From a virus (lineage: Duplodnaviria; Heunggongvirae; Uroviricota; Caudoviricetes), in IMG/VR virus record IMGVR_UViG_3300045051_000014: 64,000 nt of DNA; one strand, 5' to 3'. Within the stretch, counting starts at the first letter, position 1, and each line of letters begins with the position of its first letter. The translations under genes were made by a program, and so were the position numbers. Below the pieces are notes generated by a model. The model saw only the letters and a program-made list of their open reading frames with translations. It ran no database searches and had not been told where the DNA came from. This document shows, piece after piece, positions 41,806-58,475 of this stretch.

Positions 41806-41881
41806 GCAAGCGTCGTCTAACGGCTAGGATACTAGACTTTCAATCTGGAAGATGCGGGTTCGAATCCCGTCGCTTGCTCCA
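41806..41881 (+). tRNA. tRNA-Glu(TTC)
   Basis: manual fold: acceptor gcaagcg/cgcttgc, anticodon loop cTTTCaa, T-arm gcgggTTCGAATcccgt, CCA encoded. Confidence 0.75.
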
Positions 41882-42069
41882 ATTTTTCGGAGCGCGGTTA
41901 ATTCTCGCGTTCGAATACTGAGTCGGAAAAAGTCGGGGTTCAATTCCCTGTCATGCGCTTCGGTGTATGGTGGTGTAACGGCAGCACAGTTCCATTTGAG
42001 AGATTCGCGTCACCCGTCGCGACAAGCGAGGTCTGTAACAACAGGCTGAAATTACGGGTAATGAACAAT

Positions 42070-42145
42070 TCCGGGTTGACTAGAGTGGTAATAGCCGCGA
42101 CTGTTAATCGCGTATTCGTAGGTTCGATCCCTACACCCGGAGCCA
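42070..42145 (+). tRNA. tRNA-Asn(GTT)
   Basis: acceptor tccgggt/acccgga, anticodon stem cgcga/tcgcg loop ctGTTaa, T-loop TTCGATC, CCA. Confidence 0.75.
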
Positions 42146-42153
42146 ATTTTTAT

Positions 42154-42228
42154 GGTCCCTTGGTATAACGGCTATTATGCGAAGCTGTCTACTTCGCGAA
42201 ACGGGTTCGACTCCCGTAGGGATCGCCA
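42154..42228 (+). tRNA. tRNA-Asp(GTC)
   Basis: acceptor ggtccct/agggatc, anticodon loop ctGTCta, T-arm acgggTTCGACTcccgt, CCA. Confidence 0.65.
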
Positions 42229-42232
42229 ATTT

Positions 42233-42306
42233 GGGGAGTTAGTATAACGGGATTATTTCTCGCTTGCACCGAGAAGACAAGGGTTCGATTCCCTTACTCT
42301 CCACCA
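42233..42306 (+). tRNA. tRNA-Ala(TGC)
   Basis: acceptor ggggagt/actctcc with G3-U70, anticodon loop ctTGCac, CCA. Confidence 0.8.
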
Positions 42307-42311
42307 ATCAT

Positions 42312-42388
42312 GGGTCTGTCGTATAACGGCATATTATATTCGGCTCTTAACCGATAAGATTAGGGTTCGATTCCCTACAGACCCACCA
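42312..42388 (+). tRNA. tRNA-Lys(CTT)
   Basis: perfect acceptor gggtctg/cagaccc, loop ctCTTaa, T-loop TTCGATT. Confidence 0.7.
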
Positions 42389-42396
42389 ATTACTAT

Positions 42397-42481
42397 GGTC
42401 AAGTATACCGTTAAAGACGCGGAACCGGCTGTAACCCGGTTGTCTCAGACTGGCTAGGAGCGTTACCTAGATTGACCACCA
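42397..42481 (+). tRNA. tRNA-Tyr(GTA)-like, long variable arm, non-canonical T-loop AGCGTTA
   Basis: anticodon stem accgg/ccggt loop ctGTAac; variable hairpin gtc-tca-gac; T-stem ctagg/cctag; one acceptor mismatch. Confidence 0.45.
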
Positions 42482-42491
42482 ATTCATCGTC

Positions 42492-42567
42492 GGGTTCATG
42501 GCGTAACGGCGAGCGCATCGGGCTTTTACCCCGTAAGGTCAGGGTTCGAATCCCTGTGAACCCACCA
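42492..42567 (+). tRNA. tRNA-Lys(TTT)
   Basis: perfect acceptor gggttca/tgaaccc, loop cTTTTac, T-arm agggTTCGAATccct. Confidence 0.7.
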
Positions 42568-42571
42568 ACAT

Positions 42572-42666
42572 GTTCCTGTGGTGTAACGGCAGCACTCCAC
42601 TCTTATAAGGTGGCAATGGCGGCAGATTACCGCATGGTCTAGGTTCGAATCCTAGCAGGAACACCA
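42572..42666 (+). tRNA. atypical 95-nt tRNA-like gene, anticodon ambiguous (TAT or GAT depending on which internal hairpin is the anticodon arm)
   Basis: perfect acceptor gttcctg/caggaac + ACCA, canonical T-arm ctaggTTCGAATcctag, D-arm gtgtaacggcagcac, but two internal hairpins (ccact-cttataa-ggtgg and gcgg-cagatta-ccgc). Confidence 0.45.
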
Positions 42667-42673
42667 GAACAAT

Positions 42674-42748
42674 GCCGGTGTCATCTAATGGCGAAGATGG
42701 TCGCCCGATTAGCGACTCATAAGGGTTCAAGTCCTTTCACCGGTACCA
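42674..42748 (+). tRNA. tRNA-Ile(GAT)-like (C33 instead of U33)
   Basis: perfect acceptor gccggtg/caccggt, anticodon stem gtcgc/gcgac loop ccGATta, T-loop TTCAAGT. Confidence 0.55.
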
Positions 42749-42756
42749 ATTTATTT

Positions 42757-42833
42757 CGGGGTTTAGCTCAGTCTGGTAGAGCGTCTGCTTTGGGAGCAGA
42801 ATGTCAAGTGTTCGAATCACTTATCCCCGACCA
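42757..42833 (+). tRNA. tRNA-Pro(TGG)
   Basis: D-arm gctcagtctggtagagc, anticodon stem tctgc/gcaga loop ttTGGga, T-loop TTCGAAT. Confidence 0.7.
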
Positions 42834-42839
42834 ATTTCT

Positions 42840-42918
42840 GCGAGCGTGGCGTAACAGGCAAACGCGGCAGACTTAAAATCTGCGACATTTGTGAGTTCGA
42901 ATCTCACCGTTCGCACCA
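42840..42918 (+). tRNA. tRNA-Leu(TAA), class-I length (7-nt variable loop, no long arm), A73
   Basis: acceptor gcgagcg/cgttcgc, D gcgt-aacaggcaa-acgc, anticodon gcaga/tctgc loop ctTAAaa, T-arm gtgagTTCGAATctcac. Confidence 0.65.
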
Positions 42919-42927
42919 AAGTATAAT

Positions 42928-43002
42928 GCGGGTAAGGTGTTAATAGATACACGGCGGTCTTCCAAACCTCAGTTGTGGGCGCGATACCCACTACCCGCTC
43001 CA
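42928..43002 (+). tRNA. tRNA-Gly(TCC), T-loop CGCGATA
   Basis: acceptor gcgggta/tacccgc, loop ctTCCaa, discriminator U + CCA; resembles phage-type tRNA-Gly. Confidence 0.7.
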
Positions 43003-43131
43003 ATTTGCTCGTTGATCGGTGAGCCTGACGGCAGATCCGCAAATGTCAAATGCGTTGGTTCGCATTCCGGCTCTCTCCATACAGCGGGAGAGTATCGGGT
43101 AAGACGGTTCGATTCCGCAGCAAAACAATTT

Positions 43132-43207
43132 GTCCTCATAGCATAACGGAAAGTGCGTCGGGCTTCTACCCCGTTCGGTGTGGGTTCGATTCCTACTGAG
43201 GACACCA
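43132..43207 (+). tRNA. tRNA-Arg(TCT)
   Basis: perfect acceptor gtcctca/tgaggac, loop ctTCTac, T-arm gtgggTTCGATTcctac. Confidence 0.7.
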
Positions 43208-43213
43208 AATTAT

Positions 43214-43289
43214 GTTGGGTTAGTATAACGGCTATTACAGCAGTCTCCAAAACTGCACGATGGGAGTTCGAATCTCTCACCCAACGCCA
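43214..43289 (+). tRNA. tRNA-Trp(CCA)
   Basis: perfect acceptor gttgggt/acccaac, anticodon gcagt/actgc loop ctCCAaa, G73. Confidence 0.8.
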
Positions 43290-43301
43290 ATCACAAACAA
43301 T

Positions 43302-43379
43302 GGGACGTTGAAGGGAACTGGTATACCTTTCACGCTTAGAACGTGAAGCTTCTCGGTTCGAATCCGAGGCGTCCTACCA
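43302..43379 (+). tRNA. tRNA-Leu(TAG), class-I length, A73
   Basis: D aagg-gaactggtat-acct, anticodon tcacg/cgtga loop ctTAGaa, 5-nt variable, T-arm ctcggTTCGAATccgag. Confidence 0.6.
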
Positions 43380-43530
43380 ATGCATAGGTTGTCAACAAAC
43401 CTCAATAGACGTAAGAGAAAACCTTACGGTGATGAAATCGTGTTGAACGCACTCTTCATGCGTCATAGTCTTAAAGCGATAAGACAGGAGCGTTGTCTCG
43501 GATACGTAACCGGGGCGGCTATTCAACAAT

Positions 43531-43605
43531 GCCCTCTTAGTATAACGGAAAGAATACTTCGCTACGAACGAAGAGGTAGGGGTTCGATTCCCTTAGAGGG
43601 TACCA
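43531..43605 (+). tRNA. tRNA-Arg(ACG)
   Basis: anticodon cttcg/cgaag loop ctACGaa, T-loop TTCGATT. Confidence 0.7.
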
Positions 43606-43610
43606 ACATT

Positions 43611-43685
43611 GTCTCTGTAGTGTAATGGAAAACACGCAACTCTCCGAAGGTTGTAATTCAGGCTCGACTCCTGACAGGGACACCA
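43611..43685 (+). tRNA. tRNA-Arg(CCG), T-loop CTCGACT
   Basis: acceptor gtctctg/cagggac, anticodon caact/ggttg loop ctCCGaa. Confidence 0.65.
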
Positions 43686-43687
43686 AT

Positions 43688-43762
43688 GGTGATATCGTAC
43701 AACGGCTAGTACCGAAGTCTCATAAGCTTTTAATGATGGTTCGATTCCATCTATCACCACCA
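43688..43762 (+). tRNA. tRNA-Met or Ile2 (CAT), elongator-type
   Basis: perfect acceptor ggtgata/tatcacc (G1-C72 so not initiator), loop ctCATaa. Confidence 0.7.
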
Positions 43763-43768
43763 AATTAC

Positions 43769-43843
43769 GCCGAGTAAGCATTGCAAGCGATGCAGGGGTC
43801 TTGTAAGCCTCAGAATGCGGGGCAGTACCGCAACACGGCACCA
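43769..43843 (+). tRNA. tRNA-Thr(TGT), non-canonical T-loop GGCAGTA
   Basis: acceptor gccgagt/acacggc (one A-A mismatch), D gcat-tgcaagcg-atgc, loop ctTGTaa. Confidence 0.5.
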
Positions 43844-43848
43844 ACTAT

Positions 43849-43924
43849 GTAAGCGTGGCAGACCGGCAGATGCAGCAGGTTGCAACCCTGTTTTAAGTAG
43901 GTTCGACTCCTATCGCTTACTCCA
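43849..43924 (+). tRNA. tRNA-Cys(GCA)
   Basis: perfect acceptor gtaagcg/cgcttac, loop ttGCAac, U73, T-loop TTCGACT. Confidence 0.75.
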
Positions 43925-44020
43925 AACAAGCTGATGCGGGGTTCGACACCCCTGATGATCGCTAGAGGGTTGCAAACTTCTAACGACTAATGAAGGACGC
44001 TCATCGGCTCTAAACACAAT

Positions 44021-44094
44021 GCCCGATTCGTAAAATGGCATTACCTCGCTTTTACACGGCGAAGTTGGCAGTTCGATTCTGTCATCGGGTACCA
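44021..44094 (+). tRNA. tRNA-Val(TAC)
   Basis: acceptor gcccgat/atcgggt, D gtaa-aatggca-ttac, anticodon tcgct/ggcga loop ttTACac. Confidence 0.7.
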
Positions 44095-44165
44095 AACACA
44101 GCAAACGTTATGCGTTTCAAAGGGAGCGGCTGCAAAGCAAACTGGCTTCCACCAATTCAGACAAT

Positions 44166-44241
44166 AGCGGAAGGGTGAAACGGTTTACATTCTAGCCTCA
44201 TAAGCTAGAGACATTGGGTTCGACTCCCATGACCGCTACCA
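44166..44241 (+). tRNA. tRNA-Met(CAT)-like with imperfect acceptor (5 bp + AA/GA mismatches at 6-67,7-66)
   Basis: anticodon ctagc/gctag loop ctCATaa, T-loop TTCGACT, ACCA end. Confidence 0.45.
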
Positions 44242-44247
44242 AACAAT

Positions 44248-44328
44248 GTCCCAAAGAGAGCGAACGGAACGCCTGTTGCCATTGGCAATGCAAGCTAGCT
44301 ACGGTTTCGATGCCGTTGCGGGACACCA
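44248..44328 (+). tRNA. tRNA-like element, anticodon undetermined (possible pseudogene)
   Basis: acceptor gtccc(aa)/(gc)gggac + ACCA, aacgg D-loop, no clean 7-nt anticodon loop, odd T-region tttcgatg. Confidence 0.3.
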
Positions 44329-44333
44329 ATTAC

Positions 44334-44407
44334 GTCCGATTAGCTTAAAAGTGAAGCACCGTGCTGATAACGCGGAGAAGTAGGAGCATTACCTACATTG
44401 GACACCA
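44334..44407 (+). tRNA. tRNA-Ile(GAT), T-loop AGCATTA
   Basis: acceptor gtccgat/attggac, D gctt-aaaagtg-aagc, anticodon ccgtg/cgcgg loop ctGATaa (canonical Ile loop). Confidence 0.6.
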
Positions 44408-44512
44408 ACTACATTCAGCGCACAAACTCTTGCCATTTAAACGGGCGAGTATGCAGAGTGCGGTCCTGCGTCAACAGGGCGAAGCGATTTTGACGAATCG
44501 TAGACTGCGTGC

Positions 44513-44587
44513 GCCGCCATAGTATAATGGTCATTACAAGGTCTTGGTAAGACTTGAATCACAGTTCGATTCTGTGTGGTGGCACCA
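44513..44587 (+). tRNA. tRNA-Thr(GGT)
   Basis: acceptor gccgcca/tggtggc, loop ttGGTaa, T-arm cacagTTCGATTctgtg. Confidence 0.75.
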
Positions 44588-44592
44588 ACAAT

Positions 44593-44678
44593 GCGGAAGT
44601 AGCCTAGCGGTTAGGCACTTGCTTGCCAAGCAAGAGTGCGAAAGCCAAACGCGAGTTCGAATCTCGTCTTCCGCTCCA
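44593..44678 (+). tRNA. tRNA with anticodon GCC (Gly) but 86 nt with ~16-nt variable region
   Basis: perfect acceptor gcggaag/cttccgc, class-II-like D-arm gcc-tagcggtta-ggc, anticodon cttgc/gcaag loop ttGCCaa, extra agtgcgaaagccaaac before T-arm. Confidence 0.5.
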
Positions 44679-44679
44679 A

Positions 44680-45279
44680 TTAGCGTGGATCGTACCTGTA
44701 ATCAGAATGATACATGTTGACGATCCCGCGTCTTAGCTCAGAAGTAAGTTCAAGGTTAGGTATGAAGTTCGGCTTTTCGTTTTCAACGGGAATGTCGATT
44801 GCCATGCCGCCGAAGATACCAATGAGTTTTCTGGCTTCCGATTCGAAGTCATGAAAGTTGAGAACGTTCATGTTAGGATGATCAAACCAATCGGACTGCG
44901 GCTTGAAGCCAATAATGTCGGTGCGTTGAATCCTCTCTAGCAGACGATCCGGATGATTCATCTTATCTCTTAGATGTTGCGGAAGAGCGTTGTATGATTC
45001 TTCATCCAACGGTTCCGGCATACGAATACCAGTGAATGATTCGGGAAACAGTTTGATCAGGACGGTTCGATACGTGCGCAGAAAGTTGTACGCGGATACG
45101 AAACGTTCTACAGGGTCACGCCAGAAAGCGTAACCACTTGAATCTAAATACGCAGTGCTTGGAGTCTCATGCAGACTTCCGACATTCCTGCCGTAAGGTT
45201 TCAATAAGTTTCGAATGGTAGTCGAACCAGTTTTCGGCACCAGATAGAATGCGTGCTTGTTGTCATGACTAATGATCAT
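44680..45279 (-). CDS. sulfotransferase-family protein (PAPS-binding PKTGSTT motif)
   Basis: N-terminal FYLVPKTGSTTIRNLL resembles sulfotransferase 5'-PSB loop; only sizeable minus-strand gene, embedded in tRNA array. Confidence 0.55.
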   Translation of the reverse strand: MIISHDNKHAFYLVPKTGSTTIRNLLKPYGRNVGSLHETPSTAYLDSSGYAFWRDPVERFVSAYNFLRTYRTVLIKLFPESFTGIRMPEPLDEESYNALPQHLRDKMNHPDRLLERIQRTDIIGFKPQSDWFDHPNMNVLNFHDFESEARKLIGIFGGMAIDIPVENEKPNFIPNLELTSELRRGIVNMYHSDYRYDPR

Positions 45280-45439
45280 GCACGTATTTAGGGGAAGATC
45301 ATGAACTTCGAAAGAAACAGAGCATATTACTGGCGGCAGGCGCGAGCATGTTTCAAAGCCGGTTTCAAGTTCCTTCGAAGAGCAATCTTCCTTCCAAAAA
45401 GATAATGTCTCTTAAGCTAATCTAGTGAAAGCGCAGGTC

Positions 45440-45590
45440 TGAAAAGCCTGATAGGTTGGAGCGTAACCAACAGGGGACACCAGTTTCGGGATGTTTACAG
45501 CAAACCAAATACCTCGCCAAATCTGAGGGGCTGTCCAATGGGGACTGTGCGCTAGGGTTCGAATCCCTGCCTACTAGCACAACCATCCCG
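45440..45590 (+). ncRNA. tRNA-like / Y RNA-like module (ACAGCAAACCAAAT + T-arm-like GGTTCGAATCCC, no CCA)
   Basis: motif at 45497-45510; hairpins cctc..gagg, gtcc-aatg-ggac; TTCGAAT T-loop at 45557-45571 without matching acceptor. Confidence 0.4.
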
Positions 45591-45775
45591 TCTAATTGAT
45601 TGTCGCGTCACTGAAATTGAACGTGCGGACATATCGCAGCACTGAGGACATATGTTATTCCCCGCGTGGGCGAGCTTGGAGTCTTCTGCCGACAATCAAC
45701 TTTATAGAGTCAACGGATGAAATGACCTCCCTTGTGGTGCGGCAATAGCCGTATAAAAAATCCGTCGAATTCAAT

Positions 45776-45852
45776 GCACCGGTCTTCTAATAGGATAGGA
45801 AAACAGGTTCTCAACCTGTGCAATGACGGTTCGAATCCGTTCCGGTGTACCA
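45776..45852 (+). tRNA. tRNA-Glu(CTC)
   Basis: acceptor gcaccgg/ccggtgt, anticodon acagg/cctgt loop ttCTCaa, T-loop TTCGAAT. Confidence 0.65.
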
Positions 45853-45859
45853 AACATAA

Positions 45860-45934
45860 CAGGATGTAAGTCAACAGCAGACGACCTCGCTTGGAACGAG
45901 GAGGCAGTAGGGGCAGCACCTACCATCCTGACCA
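45860..45934 (+). tRNA. tRNA-Pro(TGG) second copy, T-loop GGCAGCA
   Basis: perfect acceptor caggatg/catcctg, anticodon cctcg/cgagg loop ctTGGaa. Confidence 0.55.
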
Positions 45935-45986
45935 ATTCATACTACATAGTAGACCATATGGACTACTTTGTAGTCCAAAGATCAAT

Positions 45987-46063
45987 GGTAAGTGTAGCAT
46001 AGTGGCTAATGCCCAAGACTGTGAATCTTGAAGACGCGGGTTCGAATCCCGTCGCTTACCCCA
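45987..46063 (+). tRNA. tRNA-His(GTG) with encoded G-1
   Basis: extra 5' G pairing with C73, loop ctGTGaa, T-arm gcgggTTCGAATcccgt. Confidence 0.75.
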
Positions 46064-46083
46064 AACACAAATGGAGCGAAACC

Positions 46084-46269
46084 ATGGCTGCGAAGAACGA
46101 TGTAACAGGTGATAGTATCAAAACTAAGACTGGCAATCCTGATGCGTATGCAAAGGGTTGGGATCGAATCTTCGGCAGTAAACGAACAAAGGACCGTACA
46201 CCTTCCGGTGAGCTTGCTGAACCGGTGCGCCGCAGGGCTGCGAACAAAGTACGGGCTAAGAACAATTGA
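46084..46269 (+). CDS. small basic protein (61 aa) nested between tRNA genes
   Basis: ATG with GGAG RBS 7 nt upstream; MAAKNDVTGDSIKTKTGNPDAYAKGWDRIFG... Confidence 0.35.
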   Translation: MAAKNDVTGDSIKTKTGNPDAYAKGWDRIFGSKRTKDRTPSGELAEPVRRRAANKVRAKNN

Positions 46270-46350
46270 TGGGTTGACGGTGCCGGTAACTGTCCCTAGT
46301 CTTTGAAACTAGTGCATTGCGCGTAGGTTCGACTCCTACCCCATCAGCCA
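46267..46350 (+). tRNA. tRNA-Gln(TTG) with enlarged D-loop and 10-nt variable region
   Basis: perfect acceptor tgatggg/cccatca, anticodon ctagt/actag loop ctTTGaa, T-arm gtaggTTCGACTcctac. Confidence 0.5.
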
Positions 46351-46616
46351 ATTTGCCTCTAGAGCAAAAACAACGAGTCATGTTACGTTGTAAAATAAGA
46401 ACATGCAACCATGTGCTGAAAGCAGACGGCTAACGTGCTGTCTCTCTAGCACCCACCGTTGTAGGTGGGAGTGCGGAGTGGAGTAAGAGTGGTGGTAGTA
46501 ATTGATTCCGAGATAGTTCAATAGGCAGAACAACCTCACGCTAAGAGGGAGACAGGGTTCGAATCCCACCGGAATTAGTGGCGCGGCTTCCAAGAATACC
46601 AAACGCGCCCAACTTT

Positions 46617-46690
46617 TCTCCTCTCGTCTAACGGCAGGACGCAACGCTCTGAACGTTGCTATCGTGGTTCGAATCCATGGGGGAGAGCCA
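46617..46690 (+). tRNA. tRNA-Gln(CTG)
   Basis: acceptor tctcctc/ggggaga, D gtct-aacggca-ggac, anticodon caacg/cgttg loop ctCTGaa. Confidence 0.7.
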
Positions 46691-46699
46691 AATTTAAAT

Positions 46700-46787
46700 G
46701 GAAGGTTGTCCGAGAGGCTTATGGACCCTGTTTGCTAAACAGTGGGGCGTTAAAACCACACAGGTTCGAATCCTGTACCTTCCGCCA
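46700..46787 (+). tRNA. tRNA-Ser(GCT), class II
   Basis: perfect acceptor ggaaggt/accttcc, G73, loop ttGCTaa, long variable arm, T-arm acaggTTCGAATcctgt. Confidence 0.7.
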
Positions 46788-46795
46788 AAACAAAT

Positions 46796-46883
46796 GGAAG
46801 ATTGACCGAGAGGCTTATGGTTCCCGCTTGGAAAGCGGTGAGATGTAAAAGTCACGCAGGTTCGAATCCTGCATCTTCCGCCA
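46796..46883 (+). tRNA. tRNA-Ser(GGA), class II
   Basis: perfect acceptor ggaagat/atcttcc, G73, anticodon ccgc/gcgg loop ttGGAaa, long variable arm. Confidence 0.7.
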
Positions 46884-47001
46884 AATGCAGTATAGGAAAG
46901 TATCCGAATCCAAGAGAGCCTATACCTCGCTGACGGATTCAGCCGCGCTACGTGTTGAAATGCACGGTAAAGCCGACGCGGACAAAAGTAATCGGCACAT
47001 T

Positions 47002-47075
47002 CGTCCCTTAGTATAGAAGCAATACGTTGCCTTGACATGGCAGAAAAGATGGAGCGTTACCATCAGGGACGACCA
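47002..47075 (+). tRNA. tRNA-Val(GAC), T-loop AGCGTTA
   Basis: perfect acceptor cgtccct/agggacg, D gtat-agaagca-atac, anticodon ttgcc/ggcag loop ttGACat. Confidence 0.6.
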
Positions 47076-47080
47076 ATTAT

Positions 47081-47168
47081 GGAAGGTTGGCAGAGAGGCT
47101 AATTGCCGCTGTTTCGAAAGCAGATGGGTGTAAAAACCACACAGGTTCAAATCCTGTACCTTCCGCCA
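47081..47168 (+). tRNA. tRNA-Ser(CGA), class II
   Basis: paralogous to Ser(GCT) gene (same acceptor and T-arm), loop ttCGAaa. Confidence 0.65.
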
Positions 47169-47173
47169 GATAT

Positions 47174-47250
47174 GCGAGTGTGATGTAACTGGCAAACGTG
47201 TTCGGCTCAAACCCGAATTTCTGTGGGTTCGAATCCCACCACTCGCACCA
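47174..47250 (+). tRNA. tRNA-Leu(CAA), class-I length, A73
   Basis: perfect acceptor gcgagtg/cactcgc, anticodon ttcgg/ccgaa loop ctCAAac, 5-nt variable, T-arm gtgggTTCGAATcccac. Confidence 0.65.
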
Positions 47251-47255
47251 ACTAC

Positions 47256-47332
47256 GCGCCTATGACGGAACAGGCATACGTCTAACGTTGAGAACGTTAG
47301 TTTTGTGGGTTCGAATCCCACTAGGCGCACCA
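47256..47332 (+). tRNA. tRNA-Leu(GAG), class-I length, A73
   Basis: perfect acceptor gcgccta/taggcgc, anticodon taacg/cgtta loop ttGAGaa, same T-arm as Leu(CAA). Confidence 0.65.
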
Positions 47333-47624
47333 ATTTACTGAGTCGAGCTAACGCAGGCAACTGAGGAAGTTCGCGACTCACGCAGGAATCGTGTGGGAGC
47401 CGAAAGGCGTCTTACCACCGTGATATAGTGAGCAACACAAACAGAGCGTGGGAAATTCCTGCCTATACGTTCGGGTTGTGGCAAAGATGAATGTTAGCAT
47501 AGAACAGAATCGCGGCTACGGACTCAGTAATTCGAAATAGCTAACCCATACGTGTCAAAAGGATATGTCCGAAACAAGCGTAATTCGAATGAGGCTTGTT
47601 AGACGGTGGGTTGGCGGTACCTAT

Positions 47625-47701
47625 ACCCTTGTAGTTTCAACGGACAGAACACCCCGGTCCTAACGGGTCCAATGCAGGTTCGAATCCTGTCAAGGGTACC
47701 A
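47625..47701 (+). tRNA. tRNA-Arg(CCT)
   Basis: perfect acceptor acccttg/caagggt, loop gtCCTaa, T-loop TTCGAAT. Confidence 0.6.
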
Positions 47702-47709
47702 CACATTAC

Positions 47710-47784
47710 GCCGCCATCGTATAATGGCTATTACGGATGTTTCGTAAGCATCCTATCTCAGTTCGACTCTGAGTGGCGGCACCA
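47710..47784 (+). tRNA. tRNA-Thr(CGT)
   Basis: acceptor gccgcca/tggcggc, anticodon gatgt/gcatc loop ttCGTaa, T-loop TTCGACT. Confidence 0.75.
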
Positions 47785-47787
47785 GTT

Positions 47788-47840
47788 AAATGTCCAGTAT
47801 AGTGTACAAATACCCCGGTTTTGTCCATTATAGTGTACAA
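47788..47840 (+). repeat. direct repeat GTCCA(G/T)TATAGTGTACAA x2
   Basis: 47790-47807 and 47823-47840. Confidence 0.5.
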
Positions 47841-47849
47841 GTCTATTAT

Positions 47850-47937
47850 GGAAGACTAACCCAACAAGGTTGGGACTCGCCTTGAAAGCGATGGGATGTC
47901 GAAAGGCATTGGGGCGCGATACCTCAGTCTTCCGCCA
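47850..47937 (+). tRNA. tRNA-Ser(TGA), class II, T-loop CGCGATA
   Basis: perfect acceptor ggaagac/gtcttcc, G73, loop ctTGAaa, long variable arm. Confidence 0.6.
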
Positions 47938-50473: not shown

Positions 50474-50863
50474 ATGACTACTAAGCCTGTCTTTTGGATT
50501 CAGGGACTCCATATTACTGAGGGTCCGGAACTCCTGCGCAAGTGTTTCACCGAAACTCGTATCTGGCGCGGCAACGATCCGCGTCCGATTGTTCTCGGCG
50601 GCGACGGTTATTGGCAGTGGGGCGTTTCTGCGTACCGCAACAACCACAAGGGTTTTTGTTGGACTCAGGCTCTTCACGATGGTCTGGAAGGTTTCCATTC
50701 GACCATCTTTCACAGTGACCCCGACGCACGTTTTTGCGTGCATTCGGGTCATGCCGACTATGCTCACGTTGAGCGTATTTGGAATCTGGTCAACGAAAAT
50801 GTTGCAGTGCCAGATGATTTCCCCGACGAGTTCGGCGGCATCGGCAAGGCAGGAGTTTGCTAA
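50474..50863 (+). CDS. hypothetical protein
   Basis: 129 aa, TATAAT-like box upstream within repeated element. Confidence 0.5.
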   Translation: MTTKPVFWIQGLHITEGPELLRKCFTETRIWRGNDPRPIVLGGDGYWQWGVSAYRNNHKGFCWTQALHDGLEGFHSTIFHSDPDARFCVHSGHADYAHVERIWNLVNENVAVPDDFPDEFGGIGKAGVC

Positions 50864-50867
50864 GATT

Positions 50868-51317
50868 ATGGGAATTCTATATATTATCAGGGGTGTGTCT
50901 GGTTCGGGCAAGACGACTCTCGCGCAGAAGATGGCAATCGAAAAGGGTTGCCAGTATTTTGAAGCTGACATGTGGTTCGTGCGCGGCGACGGTGAATACA
51001 TTTTCGACGCTCGCGAACTGCCGCGAGCGCACCGGTGGTGTCAGGATCAGGTGCGCAATGAGATTGCGAACGGTCGGGATGTTATCGTGTCGAACACGTT
51101 CACCCGCGAATGGGAAATGCAGGAGTACATTCGCTGCGCTTCCCTTCACAACTATCACACGGTAGTCATTGAGTGCCGTGGACAGTATCCGAATGTACAT
51201 GGATTGACCGAAGAGGCAGTAGCGAAACAGGTAGCACGCTTCGAAAGCAATGACGAGATTCGCGCAAGGAATTCTCGTTATGACGATGGACACGTTACCT
51301 TTCTACTGAATGATTGA
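50868..51317 (+). CDS. P-loop polynucleotide kinase-like protein (Pnk kinase-domain-like)
   Basis: Walker A IIRGVSGSGKTTLA at N-terminus, ~150 aa; adjacent to RNA-ligase-like and phosphoesterase genes. Confidence 0.55.
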   Translation: MGILYIIRGVSGSGKTTLAQKMAIEKGCQYFEADMWFVRGDGEYIFDARELPRAHRWCQDQVRNEIANGRDVIVSNTFTREWEMQEYIRCASLHNYHTVVIECRGQYPNVHGLTEEAVAKQVARFESNDEIRARNSRYDDGHVTFLLND

Positions 51318-52203
51318 AATGCATGTGATAGACAGACAGTTGCGCGAGTTTGCTGAGTCCAATCCGGACTTAGTATCCGTTCGCGTTTCTCTTCGCTATC
51401 CGCGTCTGCGCGTAGTGAAGTACAAGCACAAGGTTTTCTACAAGTCTCTCTGGACTCCTGAGTTGTGCGAAATGCGCGGCTTAGTTGTCGATGAAGACTG
51501 GAACGTGATCGTGCGTCCGTTCCGCAAGATTTTCAACCGCTTCGAAAACGGCACCGACTTCCCATTGGATGCCGACGTTGCGGCTGCGCGTAAGGTCAAT
51601 GGCTTTATGGCAGGCTTGACGGTGGACGATGAATACGGAACGATTGTTTCGACAACGGGTTCGTTGGATTCGCCATTCGTTGCGATGGCTGAGAAGTATT
51701 TGCTGCCGTTGAAGGATCGCGGTCTGATCAACGGTGTGACCTATCTGTTCGAAATTGTGGACCCACAGGATCCGCATATCATCGAAGAGAAGGTCGGTGC
51801 GTACCTGATTGGTGCGCGAGCAGTCTGTTCGAAGATCACGCTCCTAGAGTGTGACTTGGACGAGATTGCAGCAGGAATGGGTGTCATGCGTCCCGAGTGG
51901 AAGCGTGCGCCGTTCGCTGAAATTGTCGCGGAGACTAAGGCTTGCAAGCATGAGGGTTTCGTGTGTTACGACACTTCGAACGGTCATGCGCTCAAGATCA
52001 AGTCTCCGTATTATCTAACTAAGAAGTTCTTTTCGCGGGTTCGACCAGAGAAGTTGACGGTGGATTGGCTACAGGCTAATCGCGGTAACTTTGATGAAGA
52101 GTTCTACGGATTGATCGACTATATCTCTGCAAGCCGAGACTTTTTCGTTGCTATGTCTCCGGAAGATCGGCGTGCATACATTGAGGATTATTTGTCACTA
52201 TGA
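51310..52203 (+). CDS. ATP-dependent RNA ligase-like nucleotidyltransferase (motif I KVNG)
   Basis: AAARKVNGFMAGL lysine-nucleotidylation motif variant; 297 aa. Confidence 0.45.
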   Translation: MIEMHVIDRQLREFAESNPDLVSVRVSLRYPRLRVVKYKHKVFYKSLWTPELCEMRGLVVDEDWNVIVRPFRKIFNRFENGTDFPLDADVAAARKVNGFMAGLTVDDEYGTIVSTTGSLDSPFVAMAEKYLLPLKDRGLINGVTYLFEIVDPQDPHIIEEKVGAYLIGARAVCSKITLLECDLDEIAAGMGVMRPEWKRAPFAEIVAETKACKHEGFVCYDTSNGHALKIKSPYYLTKKFFSRVRPEKLTVDWLQANRGNFDEEFYGLIDYISASRDFFVAMSPEDRRAYIEDYLSL

Positions 52204-56001: not shown

Positions 56002-57063
56002 ATGACAAGCCAAACGCACATGTCCGTGTTCATCGGACGTTTTCAGCCGCCGCACAAGGCGCACATTGACACCATTCGGTACGCACTGAAATTCTCCGAC
56101 AAGGTGCTAATTCTAATCGGATCCGCATTCAAGCCATCCGACACTCGCAATCCGTTTTCTCATATCGAACGCAGTCACATGATCAAGACTTGCTTCGATG
56201 CTGACGTTCAAAAGCGTCTTATCTTCGACTATATCTCCGACCATCCATACAACGATCTTGCGTGGGTGAAGAATGTCCAGACTGCCATCGACAATGCTTA
56301 CTACAATAACTTCGGTTGGCAGGACAAGCAGGACATTACTCTGATTGGACACCACAAAGACGAGTCCTCTTACTACCTCGACCTGTTCCCGTCTTACAAG
56401 CAAGCCGAAATGGAAAACCTGTACGGTCTGGATTCCACGAACATTCGTGGACTCTGGTTCGCAGGCAAGGATGCGTGGAAGAACGGCAACATGAAACTGG
56501 TATCACACTCCGTTCCGCAGCCTGTCATGATTCATCTGAATGAAGTCATGAAGGAAGATCGCTACCAGACGCTAGTGAAGGAATACGAGTTTCTGCGCAC
56601 CTACAAGCTACAGTGGTCGCAGGCTCCGTATCCGCCAACCTTTGTCACCGCAGACGCAGTAGTGTCCTGCCTCGGTCACGTTCTACTGGTACAGCGCAAG
56701 GCTGCGCCGGGAGAGGGACTGTGGGCATTGCCGGGAGGCTTCCTCAATCAGTACGAAACGGTGCGTGAGTGCGCCGCTCGCGAACTAGAGGAAGAGACTA
56801 AGATCAAGGTGCCACCCGCACGGCTGCGCGGTTCGATTCGCACAGAGAAGCGATACGATCATCCCGGCAGAAGCCTGCGTGGACGCACGATCACCACCGC
56901 ATTCCACTTCGACCTCTTTGGCGAACGCTCGCTTCCGAAGGTCAGGGGTTCCGACGATGCTGCCGCAGCACGATGGTTCCCTCTCAACGAACTTGTTCGA
57001 CTACAGGACAAGATGTATGAAGATCACTACCATATCGTAACTGATCTTCTCGGCTTGGGTTGA
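56002..57063 (+). CDS. natV: bifunctional NMN adenylyltransferase / Nudix hydrolase (NadM-Nudix)
   Basis: FIGRFQPPHKAH (HxGH), Nudix box GGFLNQYETVRECAARELEEETKI. Confidence 0.85.
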   Translation: MTSQTHMSVFIGRFQPPHKAHIDTIRYALKFSDKVLILIGSAFKPSDTRNPFSHIERSHMIKTCFDADVQKRLIFDYISDHPYNDLAWVKNVQTAIDNAYYNNFGWQDKQDITLIGHHKDESSYYLDLFPSYKQAEMENLYGLDSTNIRGLWFAGKDAWKNGNMKLVSHSVPQPVMIHLNEVMKEDRYQTLVKEYEFLRTYKLQWSQAPYPPTFVTADAVVSCLGHVLLVQRKAAPGEGLWALPGGFLNQYETVRECAARELEEETKIKVPPARLRGSIRTEKRYDHPGRSLRGRTITTAFHFDLFGERSLPKVRGSDDAAAARWFPLNELVRLQDKMYEDHYHIVTDLLGLG

Positions 57064-57105
57064 AGATAGACTTCGACTCGTTTTCAAATGTTAAGGAGTT
57101 TAACA

Positions 57106-58475
57106 TGCGTACCAACTTACTACTAAACACAGACTCGTACAAGGCTTCCCACTGGCTCCAATACCCACCGGGAACAGAGTACGTCTATTCATACATCGAA
57201 TCTCGCGGCGGTCTTCATGACGCGACCGTGTTCTTCGGTCTACAGGCATTCATCAAGGAATACCTCACCGAATCCATCTGCCTCAAGGATATCTACGAAG
57301 CGAAGGAATTCTTTGAGGCACATGGCGAGCCGTTCCACTTCCACGGATGGAACTACATTCTGCGCAAGCACAATGGATATCTGCCGGTGCGTATCTCCGC
57401 GCTGCCAGAAGGAATGCGCGTGCCTGTCGGTACGCCGCTAGTCACCATCGTCAACACGGACCCTGAGTGCTTCTGGCTTACATCGTATCTGGAAACCGCA
57501 CTGCTTCGCGCAGTCTGGTATCCGACGACCGTTGCGACAATCTCACACTACATCAAGACGATCATCAAGCGCGAACTGGAAGACACTGGCGATGTTGCCG
57601 GTCTGCCGTTCAAGCTGCATGACTTCGGTGCGCGTGGCGTATCATCCAATGAATCTTCGATGCTAGGTGGCATGGCGCATCTGGTCAACTTCCAAGGCTC
57701 CGACACCGTAATGGGTATCGTCGGCGCGAAGCGTTGGTACAACGAGCCAATGGCAGGCTTCTCCATTCCGGCAGCAGAACACTCCACGATTACTACATGG
57801 GGTAAGACTCGCGATGGTGAGACTGCGGCATACGCCAACATGGTAGCCAAGTATGGTAAGCCGGGAACGATCTTCGCGGTTGTCTCCGACTCCTACGATA
57901 TCTACAAGGCGTGCGAAGAGATTTGGGGTGGAACGCTCAAGCAGCAAGTCATCGACTCCGGTGCGACTCTCGTAGTCCGTCCTGACTCTGGTGATCCGGT
58001 TGCAGTCACACTTCGCTGCATTCAGATCCTTGACGAGAAGTTCGGTCACACGGTCAACGCGAAGGGATTCAAGGTTCTCAATCACGTTCGACTGATTCAG
58101 GGTGACGGTGTGAACCCAAGTTCCATCGAAGCCATCCTGATGAACTTCAAGGCGCATGGCTACAGCGCAGACAACATTGCGTTCGGCATGGGCGGCGCGT
58201 TGCTACAGCACATGAACCGCGACACGCAGGAGTTCGCAATGAAGGCGAGCGCAATCCGAGTCAACGGCGAATGGCGCGATGTATCGAAGTCGCCAATCGG
58301 TCAGGCTTCGAAAAAGTCGAAGGGTGGACGGTTCACTGTAACATGGGACCGCGACGGTTGGCAGACGATGCCACTGGACGAGACTGTGGAGAATATGTTA
58401 AGTCCGGTCTTCGAAGACGGCAAGCTTTTGCGGGATACGTCTTTTGCACAGGTACGGTATAACAGCACCCTGTAA
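57106..58475 (+). CDS. nadV: nicotinamide phosphoribosyltransferase
   Basis: N-terminal NLLLNTDSYKASHW and overall NAMPT architecture, 456 aa. Confidence 0.85.

What the first reader, a model, noticed from the sequence alone, without database searches (positions are those of the whole stretch)
42840..47332. Four Leu-anticodon tRNAs (TAA, TAG, CAA, GAG) are class-I sized with 5-7 nt variable loops
Bacterial tRNA-Leu are class II with a long variable arm. These four genes (42840-42918, 43302-43379, 47174-47250, 47256-47332) have textbook cloverleafs, A73 discriminators and standard T-arms, yet short variable loops. The Ser tRNAs in the same array retain long arms. Either this phage uses unusual Leu tRNAs whose recognition depends on A73 and tertiary elements, or the tRNAs are charged or used non-canonically.
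Basis: seen in the sequence. Interest (0 to 1): 0.75.

Follow-up and report, generated by a model that had tools for sequence, protein, structure and literature searches.

The report
Armless leucine tRNAs in a phage
The four leucine tRNA genes of this roughly 172-kb phage really do lack the long side arm that textbook bacterial leucine tRNAs carry, but they keep every other leucine hallmark, and the same armless type turns out to be common in phage and mobile tRNA gene arrays, so the case is real but not exceptional.

Summary
ARAGORN and Rfam call four tRNA-Leu genes (UAA, UAG, CAA, GAG) at exactly the stated coordinates. They are 77-79 nt including an encoded CCA, with 5-7 nt variable loops and A73. 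The serine tRNAs in the same array keep 16-nt arms.

With the anticodon arm and variable region removed, the bodies are leucine-type. They have a 3-4 bp D stem, A14, A15, G18G19 and A20a, U48, a canonical T loop and A73. This is the identity set that E. coli LeuRS is reported to read, and the long arm is reported to be dispensable for that enzyme.

The genes are not unique. Equivalent short tRNA-Leu genes are annotated in cultured phages of Proteus, Salmonella, Aeromonas, Mesorhizobium, Gordonia and Prochlorococcus. In a pattern-selected IMG/VR sample they make up 21 of 66 tRNA-Leu genes in tRNA-rich loci. There are 196 of them in 120 bacterial genome loci, which are mostly tRNA arrays. In 37 family members 96% of stem positions pair and 17 of 19 pairs show compensatory changes.

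A type I tRNALeu has been characterised biochemically in Streptomyces coelicolor. The most likely reading is ordinary leucine decoding after charging by the host LeuRS, with the arm lost because bacterial LeuRS does not need it. A counter-defence benefit is possible. Charging has not been tested.

A conserved mini RNase P-like RNA next to these genes deserves its own follow-up.

The parts
42840..42918 (+). tRNA-Leu(UAA) with type I architecture. It has a 7-nt variable loop GACATTT, a GCGU/ACGC D stem with A14 A15 G18 G19 A20a, and A73-CCA encoded.
   Evidence: ARAGORN; Rfam RF00005 60.2 bits
43302..43379 (+). tRNA-Leu(UAG) with type I architecture. It has a 5-nt variable loop AGCTT, G1-U72 and U7-G66 wobble pairs, an AAGG/CCTT D stem with an 11-nt loop, and A73-CCA.
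   Evidence: ARAGORN; Rfam 31.9 bits. The same body type carries a GAG anticodon in L003 64-141.
47174..47250 (+). tRNA-Leu(CAA) with type I architecture, a 5-nt variable loop TTTCT and A73-CCA.
   Evidence: ARAGORN; Rfam 59.9 bits. The orthologue is at L001 8589-8665.
47256..47332 (+). tRNA-Leu(GAG) with type I architecture, a 5-nt variable loop GTTTT, an ACG/CGT D stem with the 11-nt loop GAACAGGCATA, and A73-CCA.
   Evidence: ARAGORN; Rfam 55.6 bits. It is identical to L001 8670-8746.
46700..47168 (+). Comparators: tRNA-Ser(GCU) 46700-46787, tRNA-Ser(GGA) 46796-46883 and tRNA-Ser(CGA) 47081-47168. All are 88 nt with 16-nt variable arms and G73. tRNA-Val(GAC) at 47002-47075 lies among them.
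   Evidence: ARAGORN
41806..47937 (+). The tRNA gene array that contains the four Leu genes. ARAGORN finds 32 genes at default settings. A relaxed ARAGORN threshold adds five in-array + strand calls, four of which coincide with extra Rfam RF00005 hits. The array covers 19 amino acids; no tRNA-Tyr is found in this window.

Best explanation
These are functional leucine isoacceptors in which the long variable arm of a bacterial-type (type II) tRNA-Leu has been reduced to a 5-7 nt loop, while the rest of the molecule stays leucine-type.

Shown here: the genes fold as canonical cloverleaves, and they are conserved in relatives with compensatory stem changes. They carry A73, A14, A15 with U48, G18G19, A20a and a standard T loop. 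Together their anticodons (UAA, CAA, UAG, GAG) cover all six Leu codons, and the phage uses all six with the normal meaning.

Inferred: the host LeuRS charges them with leucine by reading the discriminator base and the D-loop/T-loop corner, as E. coli LeuRS is reported to do. They then supply leucine decoding during infection.

Also inferred: the arm could be lost because bacterial LeuRS does not use it. tRNA-Ser and tRNA-Tyr in the same arrays keep their arms because their synthetases do use them. The same outcome is seen across many phages and mobile tRNA arrays, and variable regions of 8-13 nt also occur. This fits relaxed constraint with a deletion bias in fast-evolving mobile tRNA genes, possibly reinforced by selection (see the first rival explanation).
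For: Leucine-type body: in 34 viral or phage short Leu genes with a 17-nt D region, A14, A15, G18, G19 and A20a are invariant. U48 is present in 39 of 40 and A73 in 38 of 40. The sampling pattern fixed part of the D arm in at least one gene per locus, so this is partly by construction. Several members with other D stems show the same nucleotides.

Nearest-isotype test: with the anticodon arm and variable region removed, 19-28 of the 30 closest non-short tRNAs for each window gene are long-arm tRNA-Leu. The background share is 159 of 1584.

Covariation in 37 family members: 96.3% of cells pair, 17 of 19 pairs have double changes, and the covariation score is 0.94 against 0.24 for shuffles and 0.21 or less for slid partners.

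Conservation in relatives.

Codon evidence.

Variable-region length differs between otherwise similar genes: T5 tRNA-Leu(UAG) (V = 13) and Proteus phage 1 tRNA-Leu(UAG) (V = 5) share nearly the same acceptor stem and T arm and differ by a clean 8-nt gap. Variable regions of 8-11 nt also occur in the sample.

Specific to Leu: 0 of 47 Ser and 1 of 19 Tyr genes are short in the IMG/VR sample. Ser and Tyr stay long in the bacterial arrays, apart from one short Tyr call.

Literature: E. coli LeuRS needs A73, A15-U48, G18G19, A20a and the D/T contacts, and variants lacking the arm stay active in charging and editing (PMC9976931). A natural type I tRNALeu with a 5-nt loop is leucylated in S. coelicolor, and 5 nt is the minimum workable length (PMC6614811). 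The long arm matters for SerRS binding (PMC11541572).
Against: No charging or expression data exist for these tRNAs. In Fan et al. 2019 (PMC6614811) E. coli LeuRS did not charge the S. coelicolor type I tRNALeu(CAA). The authors regard Streptomyces LeuRS as the only prokaryotic enzyme known to charge both types, and they report that the E. coli LeuRS leucine-specific domain favours a large variable loop. That tRNA has C48 where the phage family has U48, but whether this explains the failure is unknown. The host of this phage, and therefore its LeuRS, is unknown. Only 64 kb of the roughly 172-kb genome was examined, so a phage-encoded LeuRS or accessory factor is not excluded. I did not find a long-arm orthologue of the window's own genes, so the deletion event in this lineage is inferred by analogy.
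Confidence: 0.75

Rival explanations
1. The arm loss is an adaptive counter-defence trait and not just tolerated decay. Several bacterial toxins and anti-phage effectors recognise or cut the long variable arm of type II tRNAs. A leucine tRNA without the arm would still be chargeable but would escape such effectors. A complete armless set covering all six codons would keep leucine decoding going if host tRNA-Leu were inactivated. This reading is compatible with the best explanation for what the tRNAs do. It differs on why the arm is missing.
For: [quoted passage not shown] The abortive-infection toxin AbiEii appears to prefer class II tRNAs (bioRxiv 10.64898/2026.01.19.700257). tRNA array units are discussed as putative anti-defence devices (PMC12803027). 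In the IMG/VR sample short Leu genes occur only in tRNA-rich loci: 0 of 56, 4 of 46 and 21 of 66 Leu genes in loci with 1-3, 4-9 and 10 or more tRNAs. The window carries other genes of counter-defence type next to the array: a Pnk-like kinase with a T4 Rnl1-type RNA ligase, and NAMPT with NMNAT-Nudix.
Against: None of the papers read here describes a defence effector that acts on tRNA-Leu through its arm. MenT3 does not prefer tRNA-Leu. Many tRNA-rich phage loci keep long-arm Leu genes or mix both types. The intermediate variable-region lengths fit drift as well as selection.
Confidence: 0.25
2. The host LeuRS cannot charge these tRNAs. They would then act as decoys or sponges for tRNA-targeting enzymes, or would depend on a phage-encoded synthetase or cofactor encoded outside the window.
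For: E. coli LeuRS did not charge the natural type I tRNALeu of S. coelicolor. About 108 kb of this phage genome was not examined.
Against: A decoy would not need four different Leu anticodons, strict retention of the LeuRS identity nucleotides, an encoded CCA, and compensatory maintenance of all four stems. Short Leu genes are present in phages of Salmonella, Escherichia and Proteus, whose LeuRS enzymes are close to the E. coli enzyme. None of the window ORFs scanned against PHROGs or Pfam matched a LeuRS. Engineered E. coli tRNA-Leu without the arm remains a substrate.
Confidence: 0.08
3. The tRNAs carry Leu anticodons but are charged with another amino acid, so the phage recodes Leu codons.
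For: Only that the class I size is typical of other isotypes that also have A73 (my own knowledge).
Against: The bodies are leucine-type, not Phe-, Lys- or Val-type. Leu codons make up 7.7% of 11,462 codons, and all six are used. In the RNR gene the TTG, CTT, CTC, CTA and CTG codons align with Leu in 67-91% of residues from 94 homologues.
Confidence: 0.03
4. The genes are decaying pseudogenes or gene-finder artefacts.
For: Leu(UAG) scores only 31.9 bits with Rfam and has two G-U pairs in the acceptor stem.
Against: Two independent tools call all four genes. They are conserved in relatives with compensatory changes. They are embedded in a same-strand array with 5-10 nt spacers and an encoded CCA.
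Confidence: 0.02

Closest known systems
Type I tRNALeu(CAA) of Streptomyces coelicolor (Fan et al. 2019, NAR, PMC6614811)
   Same: It is a bacterial-context leucine tRNA with a 5-nt variable loop. It is experimentally leucylated, and five nucleotides including nucleotide 48 is the minimum workable length. A14 is important.
   Different: It is a single chromosomal isoacceptor that coexists with four type II tRNALeu. It has C48, where the phage family has U48 in 39 of 40 members. A73 is not used by the Streptomyces enzyme. E. coli LeuRS does not charge it. Here all four Leu genes are type I, they lie in a phage tRNA array, and they retain the E. coli-type identity set.
Canonical bacterial type II tRNA-Leu (for example E. 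coli; phage T5 tRNA-Leu(UAG), 85 nt)
   Same: The acceptor and discriminator (A73), the D arm (3-bp stem, A14 A15 G18 G19 A20a), U48, the T loop and the anticodons are the same. Phage T5 and Proteus phage 1 tRNA-Leu(UAG) share nearly the same acceptor stem and T arm.
   Different: The 13-17 nt variable arm is replaced by 5-7 unpaired nucleotides. Position 37 is A in at least 90% of the family, including members with NAG anticodons, whereas E. coli CUN-reading tRNA-Leu has G37 (my own knowledge).
Short-variable-loop tRNA-Leu in mobile tRNA gene clusters and annotated phage genomes
   Same: It is the same architecture in the same kind of genomic setting. One sentence in Behra et al. 2019 (PMC6582537) notes a cluster-encoded mycobacterial tRNALeu(TAG) with a short variable loop. 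GenBank records annotate 74-78 nt tRNA-Leu genes in Proteus phage 1, Salmonella phage S124, Gordonia phage Fryberger, Mesorhizobium phage Cp1R7A-A1, cyanophage P-RSM6 and Aeromonas phage 4_4572.
   Different: The window's phage has no close relative among cultured phages. All four of its Leu isoacceptors are armless, whereas several cultured phages mix both types.
Animal mitochondrial tRNA-Leu (type I)
   Same: It has a short variable loop, and A73 and A14 serve as identity elements (PMC9976931).
   Different: Mitochondrial tRNAs have degenerate D and T loops and a dedicated LeuRS. The phage genes have fully canonical elbows.

Membership tests
Canonical elongator tRNA (Rfam RF00005) | Cloverleaf with a 7-bp acceptor stem, 5-bp anticodon and T stems, U8, U33, G18G19, and T54-T55-C56 in a 7-nt T loop | tested here: met
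   Rfam scores are 60.2, 31.9, 59.9 and 55.6 bits against a gathering score of 29. G18, G19 and the GTTC motif are invariant in the family alignment.
Bacterial tRNA-Leu (LeuRS substrate, E. coli-type identity set) | Discriminator A73 | tested here: met
   All four window genes end in A-CCA. A73 is present in 38 of 40 viral family members.
Bacterial tRNA-Leu (LeuRS substrate, E. coli-type identity set) | A14, the A15-U48 tertiary pair, and G18G19 with A20a in the D loop | tested here: met
   The nucleotides are present in all four genes. In the family sample they are invariant, and U48 is present in 39 of 40. The pairing geometry itself was not tested.
Bacterial tRNA-Leu (LeuRS substrate, E. 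coli-type identity set) | Body sequence closer to tRNA-Leu than to other isotypes once the anticodon and variable region are removed | tested here: met
   19-28 of the 30 nearest non-short tRNAs are long-arm tRNA-Leu, against a 10% background share.
Bacterial tRNA-Leu (LeuRS substrate, E. coli-type identity set) | Long variable arm (type II architecture, more than 10 nt) | tested here: not met
   The variable regions are 7, 5, 5 and 5 nt. This is the anomaly itself. According to PMC9976931 the arm is characteristic of tRNA-Leu but is not an identity element for E. coli LeuRS.
Bacterial tRNA-Leu (LeuRS substrate, E. coli-type identity set) | Leucylation by LeuRS | not testable with these tools
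   This needs an aminoacylation assay or charge-sensitive tRNA sequencing.
Type I tRNALeu (as defined by Fan et al. 2019) | A Leu anticodon combined with a short variable loop of at least 5 nt including nucleotide 48 | tested here: met
   the definition and length requirement come from PMC6614811.
Phage and tRNA-array short-arm tRNA-Leu group (delimited here) | A Leu-type D arm with a 5-7 nt variable loop ending in U and A73, located inside a dense same-strand tRNA array whose Ser and Tyr genes keep long arms | tested here: met
   Window. Relatives. IMG/VR sample. Bacterial arrays. Cultured phages.
tRNA pseudogene or tRNA-like decoy | Broken stems, loss of conserved nucleotides, and no conservation or covariation among relatives | tested here: not met
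   96.3% of stem cells pair and 17 of 19 pairs show compensatory changes. Orthologues exist in L001 and L003.

The most novel reading that the evidence does not exclude
Armless (type I) leucine tRNAs are a general, selected hallmark of mobile tRNA sets in phages and tRNA arrays across many bacterial phyla. Because bacterial LeuRS ignores the arm, deleting it gives a leucine tRNA that is still chargeable but no longer recognised by host toxins and defence nucleases that grip or cut the long arm of type II tRNAs. A complete four-anticodon armless set, as seen here, would then make leucine decoding independent of the host pool. This would also mean the current review statement that tRNA-Leu carries a long arm everywhere except animal mitochondria needs revising.
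Probability: 0.25. Interest if true: 0.7.

Novelty: new member of a known kind. Interest (0 to 1): 0.42.

Why it matters
For this window, the result turns an apparent anomaly into an ordinary, probably functional set of leucine tRNAs.

More broadly, the survey done here suggests that type I tRNA-Leu is far more common than the literature I could search implies. [quoted passage not shown] The only paper in the library that uses the term 'type I tRNALeu' treats it as a Streptomyces rarity.

If phage type I tRNA-Leu is charged by E. coli-type LeuRS, this would sit uneasily with the report that E. coli LeuRS charges only type II tRNALeu. It would also give natural, portable, compact leucine tRNAs for studying LeuRS recognition. 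If the arm loss protects against arm-directed effectors, that would add a new route by which phage tRNAs evade immunity.

Tried and rejected
- **Close relatives among cultured phages.** Megablast of the whole array against 50,697 phage records found none, only 85% matches to single tRNA-Pro genes. Sensitive blastn with the tRNA genes themselves was what revealed the cultured-phage counterparts.
- **Phage T5 as an anchor.** I expected T5 to carry the short form, but it has an 85-nt type II tRNA-Leu. The S124-type sequence is in only three records.
- **Single-sequence MFE folding.** It does not return the cloverleaf for several of the genes. This is usual for tRNAs, so I did not use it as evidence.
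- **MAFFT alignment problems.** MAFFT shifted three sequences that have an 18-nt D region and split the last anticodon-stem pair. I left that pair out of the covariation count, which makes the count conservative.
- **Long-arm orthologue of the window's own Leu genes.** I looked in other phages that share the RNase P-like RNA. The best matches were only 54-60 identical positions, which is not convincing.
- **Literature.** Nine searches found no paper describing armless tRNA-Leu in phages. The Schlafen, anticodon-loop-evasion and tRNA-dependent-lysogeny papers had nothing on this point.
- **Phage-encoded LeuRS.** I considered it and set it aside. None of the window ORFs scanned matched one, but the other 108 kb of the genome was not searched.
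- **Recoding.** Rejected on codon evidence.

Full report
**1. Checking the observation**

ARAGORN finds 32 tRNA genes on the + strand between 41806 and 47784. They include tRNA-Leu(taa) at 42840-42918, tRNA-Leu(tag) at 43302-43379, tRNA-Leu(caa) at 47174-47250 and tRNA-Leu(gag) at 47256-47332.

Rfam's general tRNA model matches the same four genes at 60.2, 31.9, 59.9 and 55.6 bits, against a gathering score of 29. The ARAGORN structure strings show:
- 7-bp acceptor stems, with G1-U72 and U7-G66 wobble pairs in Leu(UAG);
- 5-bp anticodon and T stems, and TTCGAAT T loops;
- variable regions of 7, 5, 5 and 5 nt;
- the tail A73-CCA.

The genes are 73-75 nt before the CCA, which leaves no room for a hidden long arm. 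The three serine tRNAs found at default settings are 88 nt with 16-nt arms. A fourth, Ser(UGA) at 47850-47937, appears at a relaxed threshold.

**2. What the window is**

The window comes from a 172,269-nt metagenomic contig (JGI 3300044712). It has no close relative among 50,697 cultured-phage records. Its proteins include:
- a class II ribonucleotide reductase, closest to enzymes of Roseobacter and other phages;
- NAMPT with an NMNAT-Nudix protein;
- an HNH endonuclease;
- a Pnk-like P-loop kinase next to a T4 Rnl1-type RNA ligase.

IMG/VR holds relatives. L001 and L002 are identical to each other, and their flanking ORF is 94% identical in protein sequence to the window's. They carry the same four short Leu genes, three long-arm Ser genes and an 87-nt long-arm tRNA-Tyr. 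L003 (74% identity) has a short Leu(gag).

Between relatives the Leu genes differ by compensatory stem changes and by anticodon swaps on the same body:
- the 5' half of the window's Leu(GAG) is nearly identical to that of L001's Leu(UAG);
- the D arm of the window's Leu(UAG) resembles that of L003's Leu(GAG).

**3. Are they really leucine tRNAs?**

All four have the D arm typical of bacterial tRNA-Leu. This is a 3-bp stem (plus a U13-A22 pair in two of them) and a loop with A14, A15, G18, G19 and A20a. They also have U as the last variable-loop nucleotide (position 48), a canonical T loop, and A73.

I removed the anticodon arm and variable region and compared each gene with 1,788 distinct tRNAs from other loci. 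For each window gene, 19-28 of the 30 nearest non-short tRNAs were long-arm tRNA-Leu. Long-arm tRNA-Leu makes up only 10% of that pool.

The phage uses all six Leu codons, which account for 7.7% of 11,462 codons. In the ribonucleotide reductase gene, the TTG, CTT, CTC, CTA and CTG codons align with Leu in 67-91% of residues from 94 homologues. I see no sign of another isotype, a shifted anticodon or recoding.

**4. The trait is widespread**

*Cultured phages.* Sensitive blastn with the window's Leu genes hit annotated tRNA-Leu genes in cultured phages. The records and ARAGORN confirm class I size in:
- Proteus phage 1 (two genes of 77 nt);
- Salmonella phage S124 (Leu-TAG, 74 nt without CCA, lying between Ala and a 92-nt Ser-GGA);
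- Gordonia phage Fryberger (78 nt);
- Mesorhizobium phage Cp1R7A-A1 (77 and 76 nt, next to an 83-nt one);
- cyanophage P-RSM6 (74 nt);
- Aeromonas phage 4_4572 (77 nt, next to an 84-nt one).

T5 itself has an 85-nt type II Leu(UAG) at the equivalent place, in the order Ala, Leu, Ser(GGA). T5 Leu(UAG) and Proteus phage 1 Leu(UAG) share almost the same acceptor stem and T arm and differ by a clean 8-nt gap in the variable region.

In those loci:
- 25 of 168 tRNA-Leu genes have a variable region of 7 nt or less;
- 0 of 47 Ser and 1 of 19 Tyr genes do;
- short Leu genes are confined to tRNA-rich loci: 0 of 56, 4 of 46 and 21 of 66 Leu genes in loci with 1-3, 4-9 and 10 or more tRNAs.

It returned 120 loci from many phyla, including cyanobacteria, Acidobacteriota, Bacteroidota and Firmicutes. 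They hold 196 short Leu genes, mostly inside arrays of up to 33 tRNAs per 8 kb. Ser genes there remain long, and so do Tyr genes apart from one short call.

The fractions are therefore indicative, not a census.

*Covariation.* In an alignment of 37 distinct phage and viral family members:
- 96.3% of stem cells pair, against 59.5% in shuffles and 47% or less when partners are slid;
- 17 of 19 pairs show changes on both sides;
- the covariation score is 0.94, against 0.24 for shuffles.

**5. What is known**

[quoted passage not shown] It also states that for E. coli LeuRS the crucial elements are A73, A15-U48, G18G19, A20a and the D/T-loop contacts, not the arm, and that variants lacking the arm remain active in charging and editing (PMC9976931).
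- Fan et al. 2019 describe a natural type I tRNALeu(CAA) in Streptomyces coelicolor with a 5-nt loop (A44-C48). Its own LeuRS and human mitochondrial LeuRS charge it, but E. coli LeuRS does not. Five nucleotides including position 48 is the minimum length. The authors regard this as a rare case (PMC6614811).
- Behra et al. 2019 note in one sentence that a tRNA-cluster-encoded mycobacterial tRNALeu(TAG) has a short variable loop (PMC6582537).
- Nine full-text searches found no paper describing the trait in phages.

**6. Most likely mechanism**

Shown here: these are structurally sound, conserved, leucine-type tRNAs without the arm. They cover all six Leu codons in a genome that uses those codons normally.

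Inferred:
- The host LeuRS charges them through A73 and the elbow and D-loop elements.
- The arm is missing because bacterial LeuRS does not need it.
- Ser and Tyr keep theirs because their synthetases bind the arm. For SerRS. For bacterial TyrRS this rests on my own knowledge.

Variable regions of 8-13 nt also occur in phage genes (T5 13 nt, Mesorhizobium phage 11 nt, Aeromonas phage 12 nt). Both types are mixed within single genomes. This fits relaxed constraint in fast-evolving mobile tRNA genes.

The main caveat is the E. coli LeuRS result with the Streptomyces tRNA. The phage family differs from that tRNA in having U48 and the E. coli-type set. It also occurs in phages of Salmonella, Escherichia and Proteus. 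Only an aminoacylation assay can settle the question.

**7. Rival readings**

*Counter-defence advantage.* This is plausible but unproven.
- Septu and Retron-Eco7 cut the tRNA-Tyr variable loop, and T5 tRNA-Tyr escapes through a different loop.
- MenT3 anchors on the tRNA-Ser arm.
- AbiEii appears to prefer class II tRNAs.
- tRNA arrays are discussed as anti-defence devices.
- The window carries tRNA-repair-type and NAD-salvage genes next to the array.
- Against it, none of the papers read here describes an effector that acts on tRNA-Leu through its arm.

*Other rivals.* The decoy, mischarging and pseudogene readings are disfavoured by the four anticodons, the retained identity nucleotides, the codon evidence and the covariation.

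**8. Verdict**

The genes are new members of an already known but under-described kind. They are not a peculiarity of this phage.

**Side finding**

Immediately downstream of Leu(GAG), at 47336-47529, lies a 194-nt RNA that matches the RNase P model. It scores 40-48 bits, below the gathering score of 84, with E about 1e-10.
- It has recognisable CR-I, CR-IV and CR-V motifs.
- Almost the whole specificity domain is missing.
- It is syntenic and 92% conserved in L001 and L003, with compensatory helix changes.
- A motif scan finds it in 19 IMG/VR contigs of 10-494 kb, mostly inside tRNA arrays on the tRNA strand.
- A search for phrases naming phage or viral RNase P found no paper on it.

Noticed in passing
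window 47336-47529 (+); also L001 8864-9057, L003 147-336 and 16 further IMG/VR contigs (L253-L271): A roughly 194-nt RNase P-like RNA sits directly after tRNA-Leu(GAG). It matches Rfam RF00373 at 40-48 bits (gathering score 84, E about 1e-10 to 1e-11). It has CR-I-like GAGGAAGUUCGCG, CR-IV AGAUGAAUG and CR-V AACAGAAUCGCGGCUACG motifs, and the specificity domain is almost entirely deleted. Column identity among three relatives is 92%, and 6 of the predicted pairs show compensatory changes. A motif scan finds it in 19 viral contigs, mostly embedded in tRNA arrays on the same strand. It looks like a phage-encoded, catalytic-domain-only RNase P RNA. A search for phrases naming phage or viral RNase P found no paper on it.
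   Followed up: partly
window 42572-42666 (+); L001 3574-3668: tRNA-Ile(UAU) is 95 nt long and has a 25-nt variable arm. This is the reverse of the Leu case: a normally class I isotype carrying a long arm. The arm is conserved in L001, with two compensatory pair changes in its stem (G-C to U-A and G-C to C-G).
   Followed up: partly
window 44593-44678 (+) and 46267-46350 (+): tRNA-Gly(GCC) is 86 nt with a 16-nt variable region, whereas the L001 counterpart is 74 nt. tRNA-Gln(UUG) is 84 nt with a 10-nt variable region and an unusually long D arm, and Rfam scores it as tRNA-Sec-like at 33.7 bits.
   Followed up: no
window 47002-47075, 42928-43002, 44334-44407, 45407-45482, 47850-47937 (all +): Several tRNAs in the array lack the canonical TTC in the T loop, and at least Val(GAC) and Ile(GAU) also lack a GG in the D loop. 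They are Val(GAC) with AGCGTTA, Gly(UCC) with CGCGATA, Ile(GAU) with AGCATTA, Phe(GAA) with AGCGTAA, and Ser(UGA) with GCGATAC. Most are missed by ARAGORN at default settings but found by Rfam or at a relaxed threshold. Other viral loci (L256, L265) have Leu tRNAs with TGCGA T loops together with AGC in place of GG in the D loop, which suggests co-varying elbow contacts.
   Followed up: no
window 50589-51317 (+) and 51310-52203 (+): These are adjacent, overlapping genes just downstream of the tRNA array. One encodes a P-loop kinase of the AAA_33 type (PF13671, 52.8 bits). The other encodes a T4 Rnl1-type RNA ligase (PF09511, 30.6 bits against a cutoff of 28.3). The pairing resembles the T4 Pnkp and Rnl1 tRNA-repair system that counters anticodon nucleases; that comparison rests on my own knowledge.
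   Followed up: partly
window 56002-57063 (+) and 57060-58475 (+): An NMNAT-like cytidylyltransferase fused to a Nudix domain lies next to a nicotinamide phosphoribosyltransferase (phrog_448, 532 bits). This is a two-gene NAD salvage module of the kind reported to counter NAD-depleting defences; that link rests on my own knowledge.
   Followed up: no
alignment A1 (37 short tRNA-Leu), position 37; window 43302-43379 and 47256-47332: Position 37 is A in at least 90% of the short Leu family, including members with NAG anticodons (loops CTTAGAA and TTGAGAA). E. coli CUN-reading tRNA-Leu has G37 (m1G37, made by TrmD; my own knowledge). These phage tRNAs would therefore not be TrmD substrates.
   Followed up: no
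L044, and L255, L258, L264 (IMG/VR contigs of 100-494 kb): ARAGORN calls tRNAs with a CTA (amber-reading) anticodon in these loci. In L044 the tRNA has a Leu-type body and was the best-scoring non-Leu neighbour of the window's Leu(UAA). L255, L258 and L264 also carry the RNase P-like RNA. These may be suppressor tRNAs of stop-codon-recoded large phages. In the bacterial genome loci, 9 genes with the Leu-type D arm were called tRNA-Asp(atc).
   Followed up: no
window 44680-45279 (-): This is the only sizeable ORF inside the tRNA array, and it lies on the opposite strand. It encodes a 199-aa protein with a weak sulfotransferase-family match (PF03567, 31 bits) and has no PHROG match.
   Followed up: no
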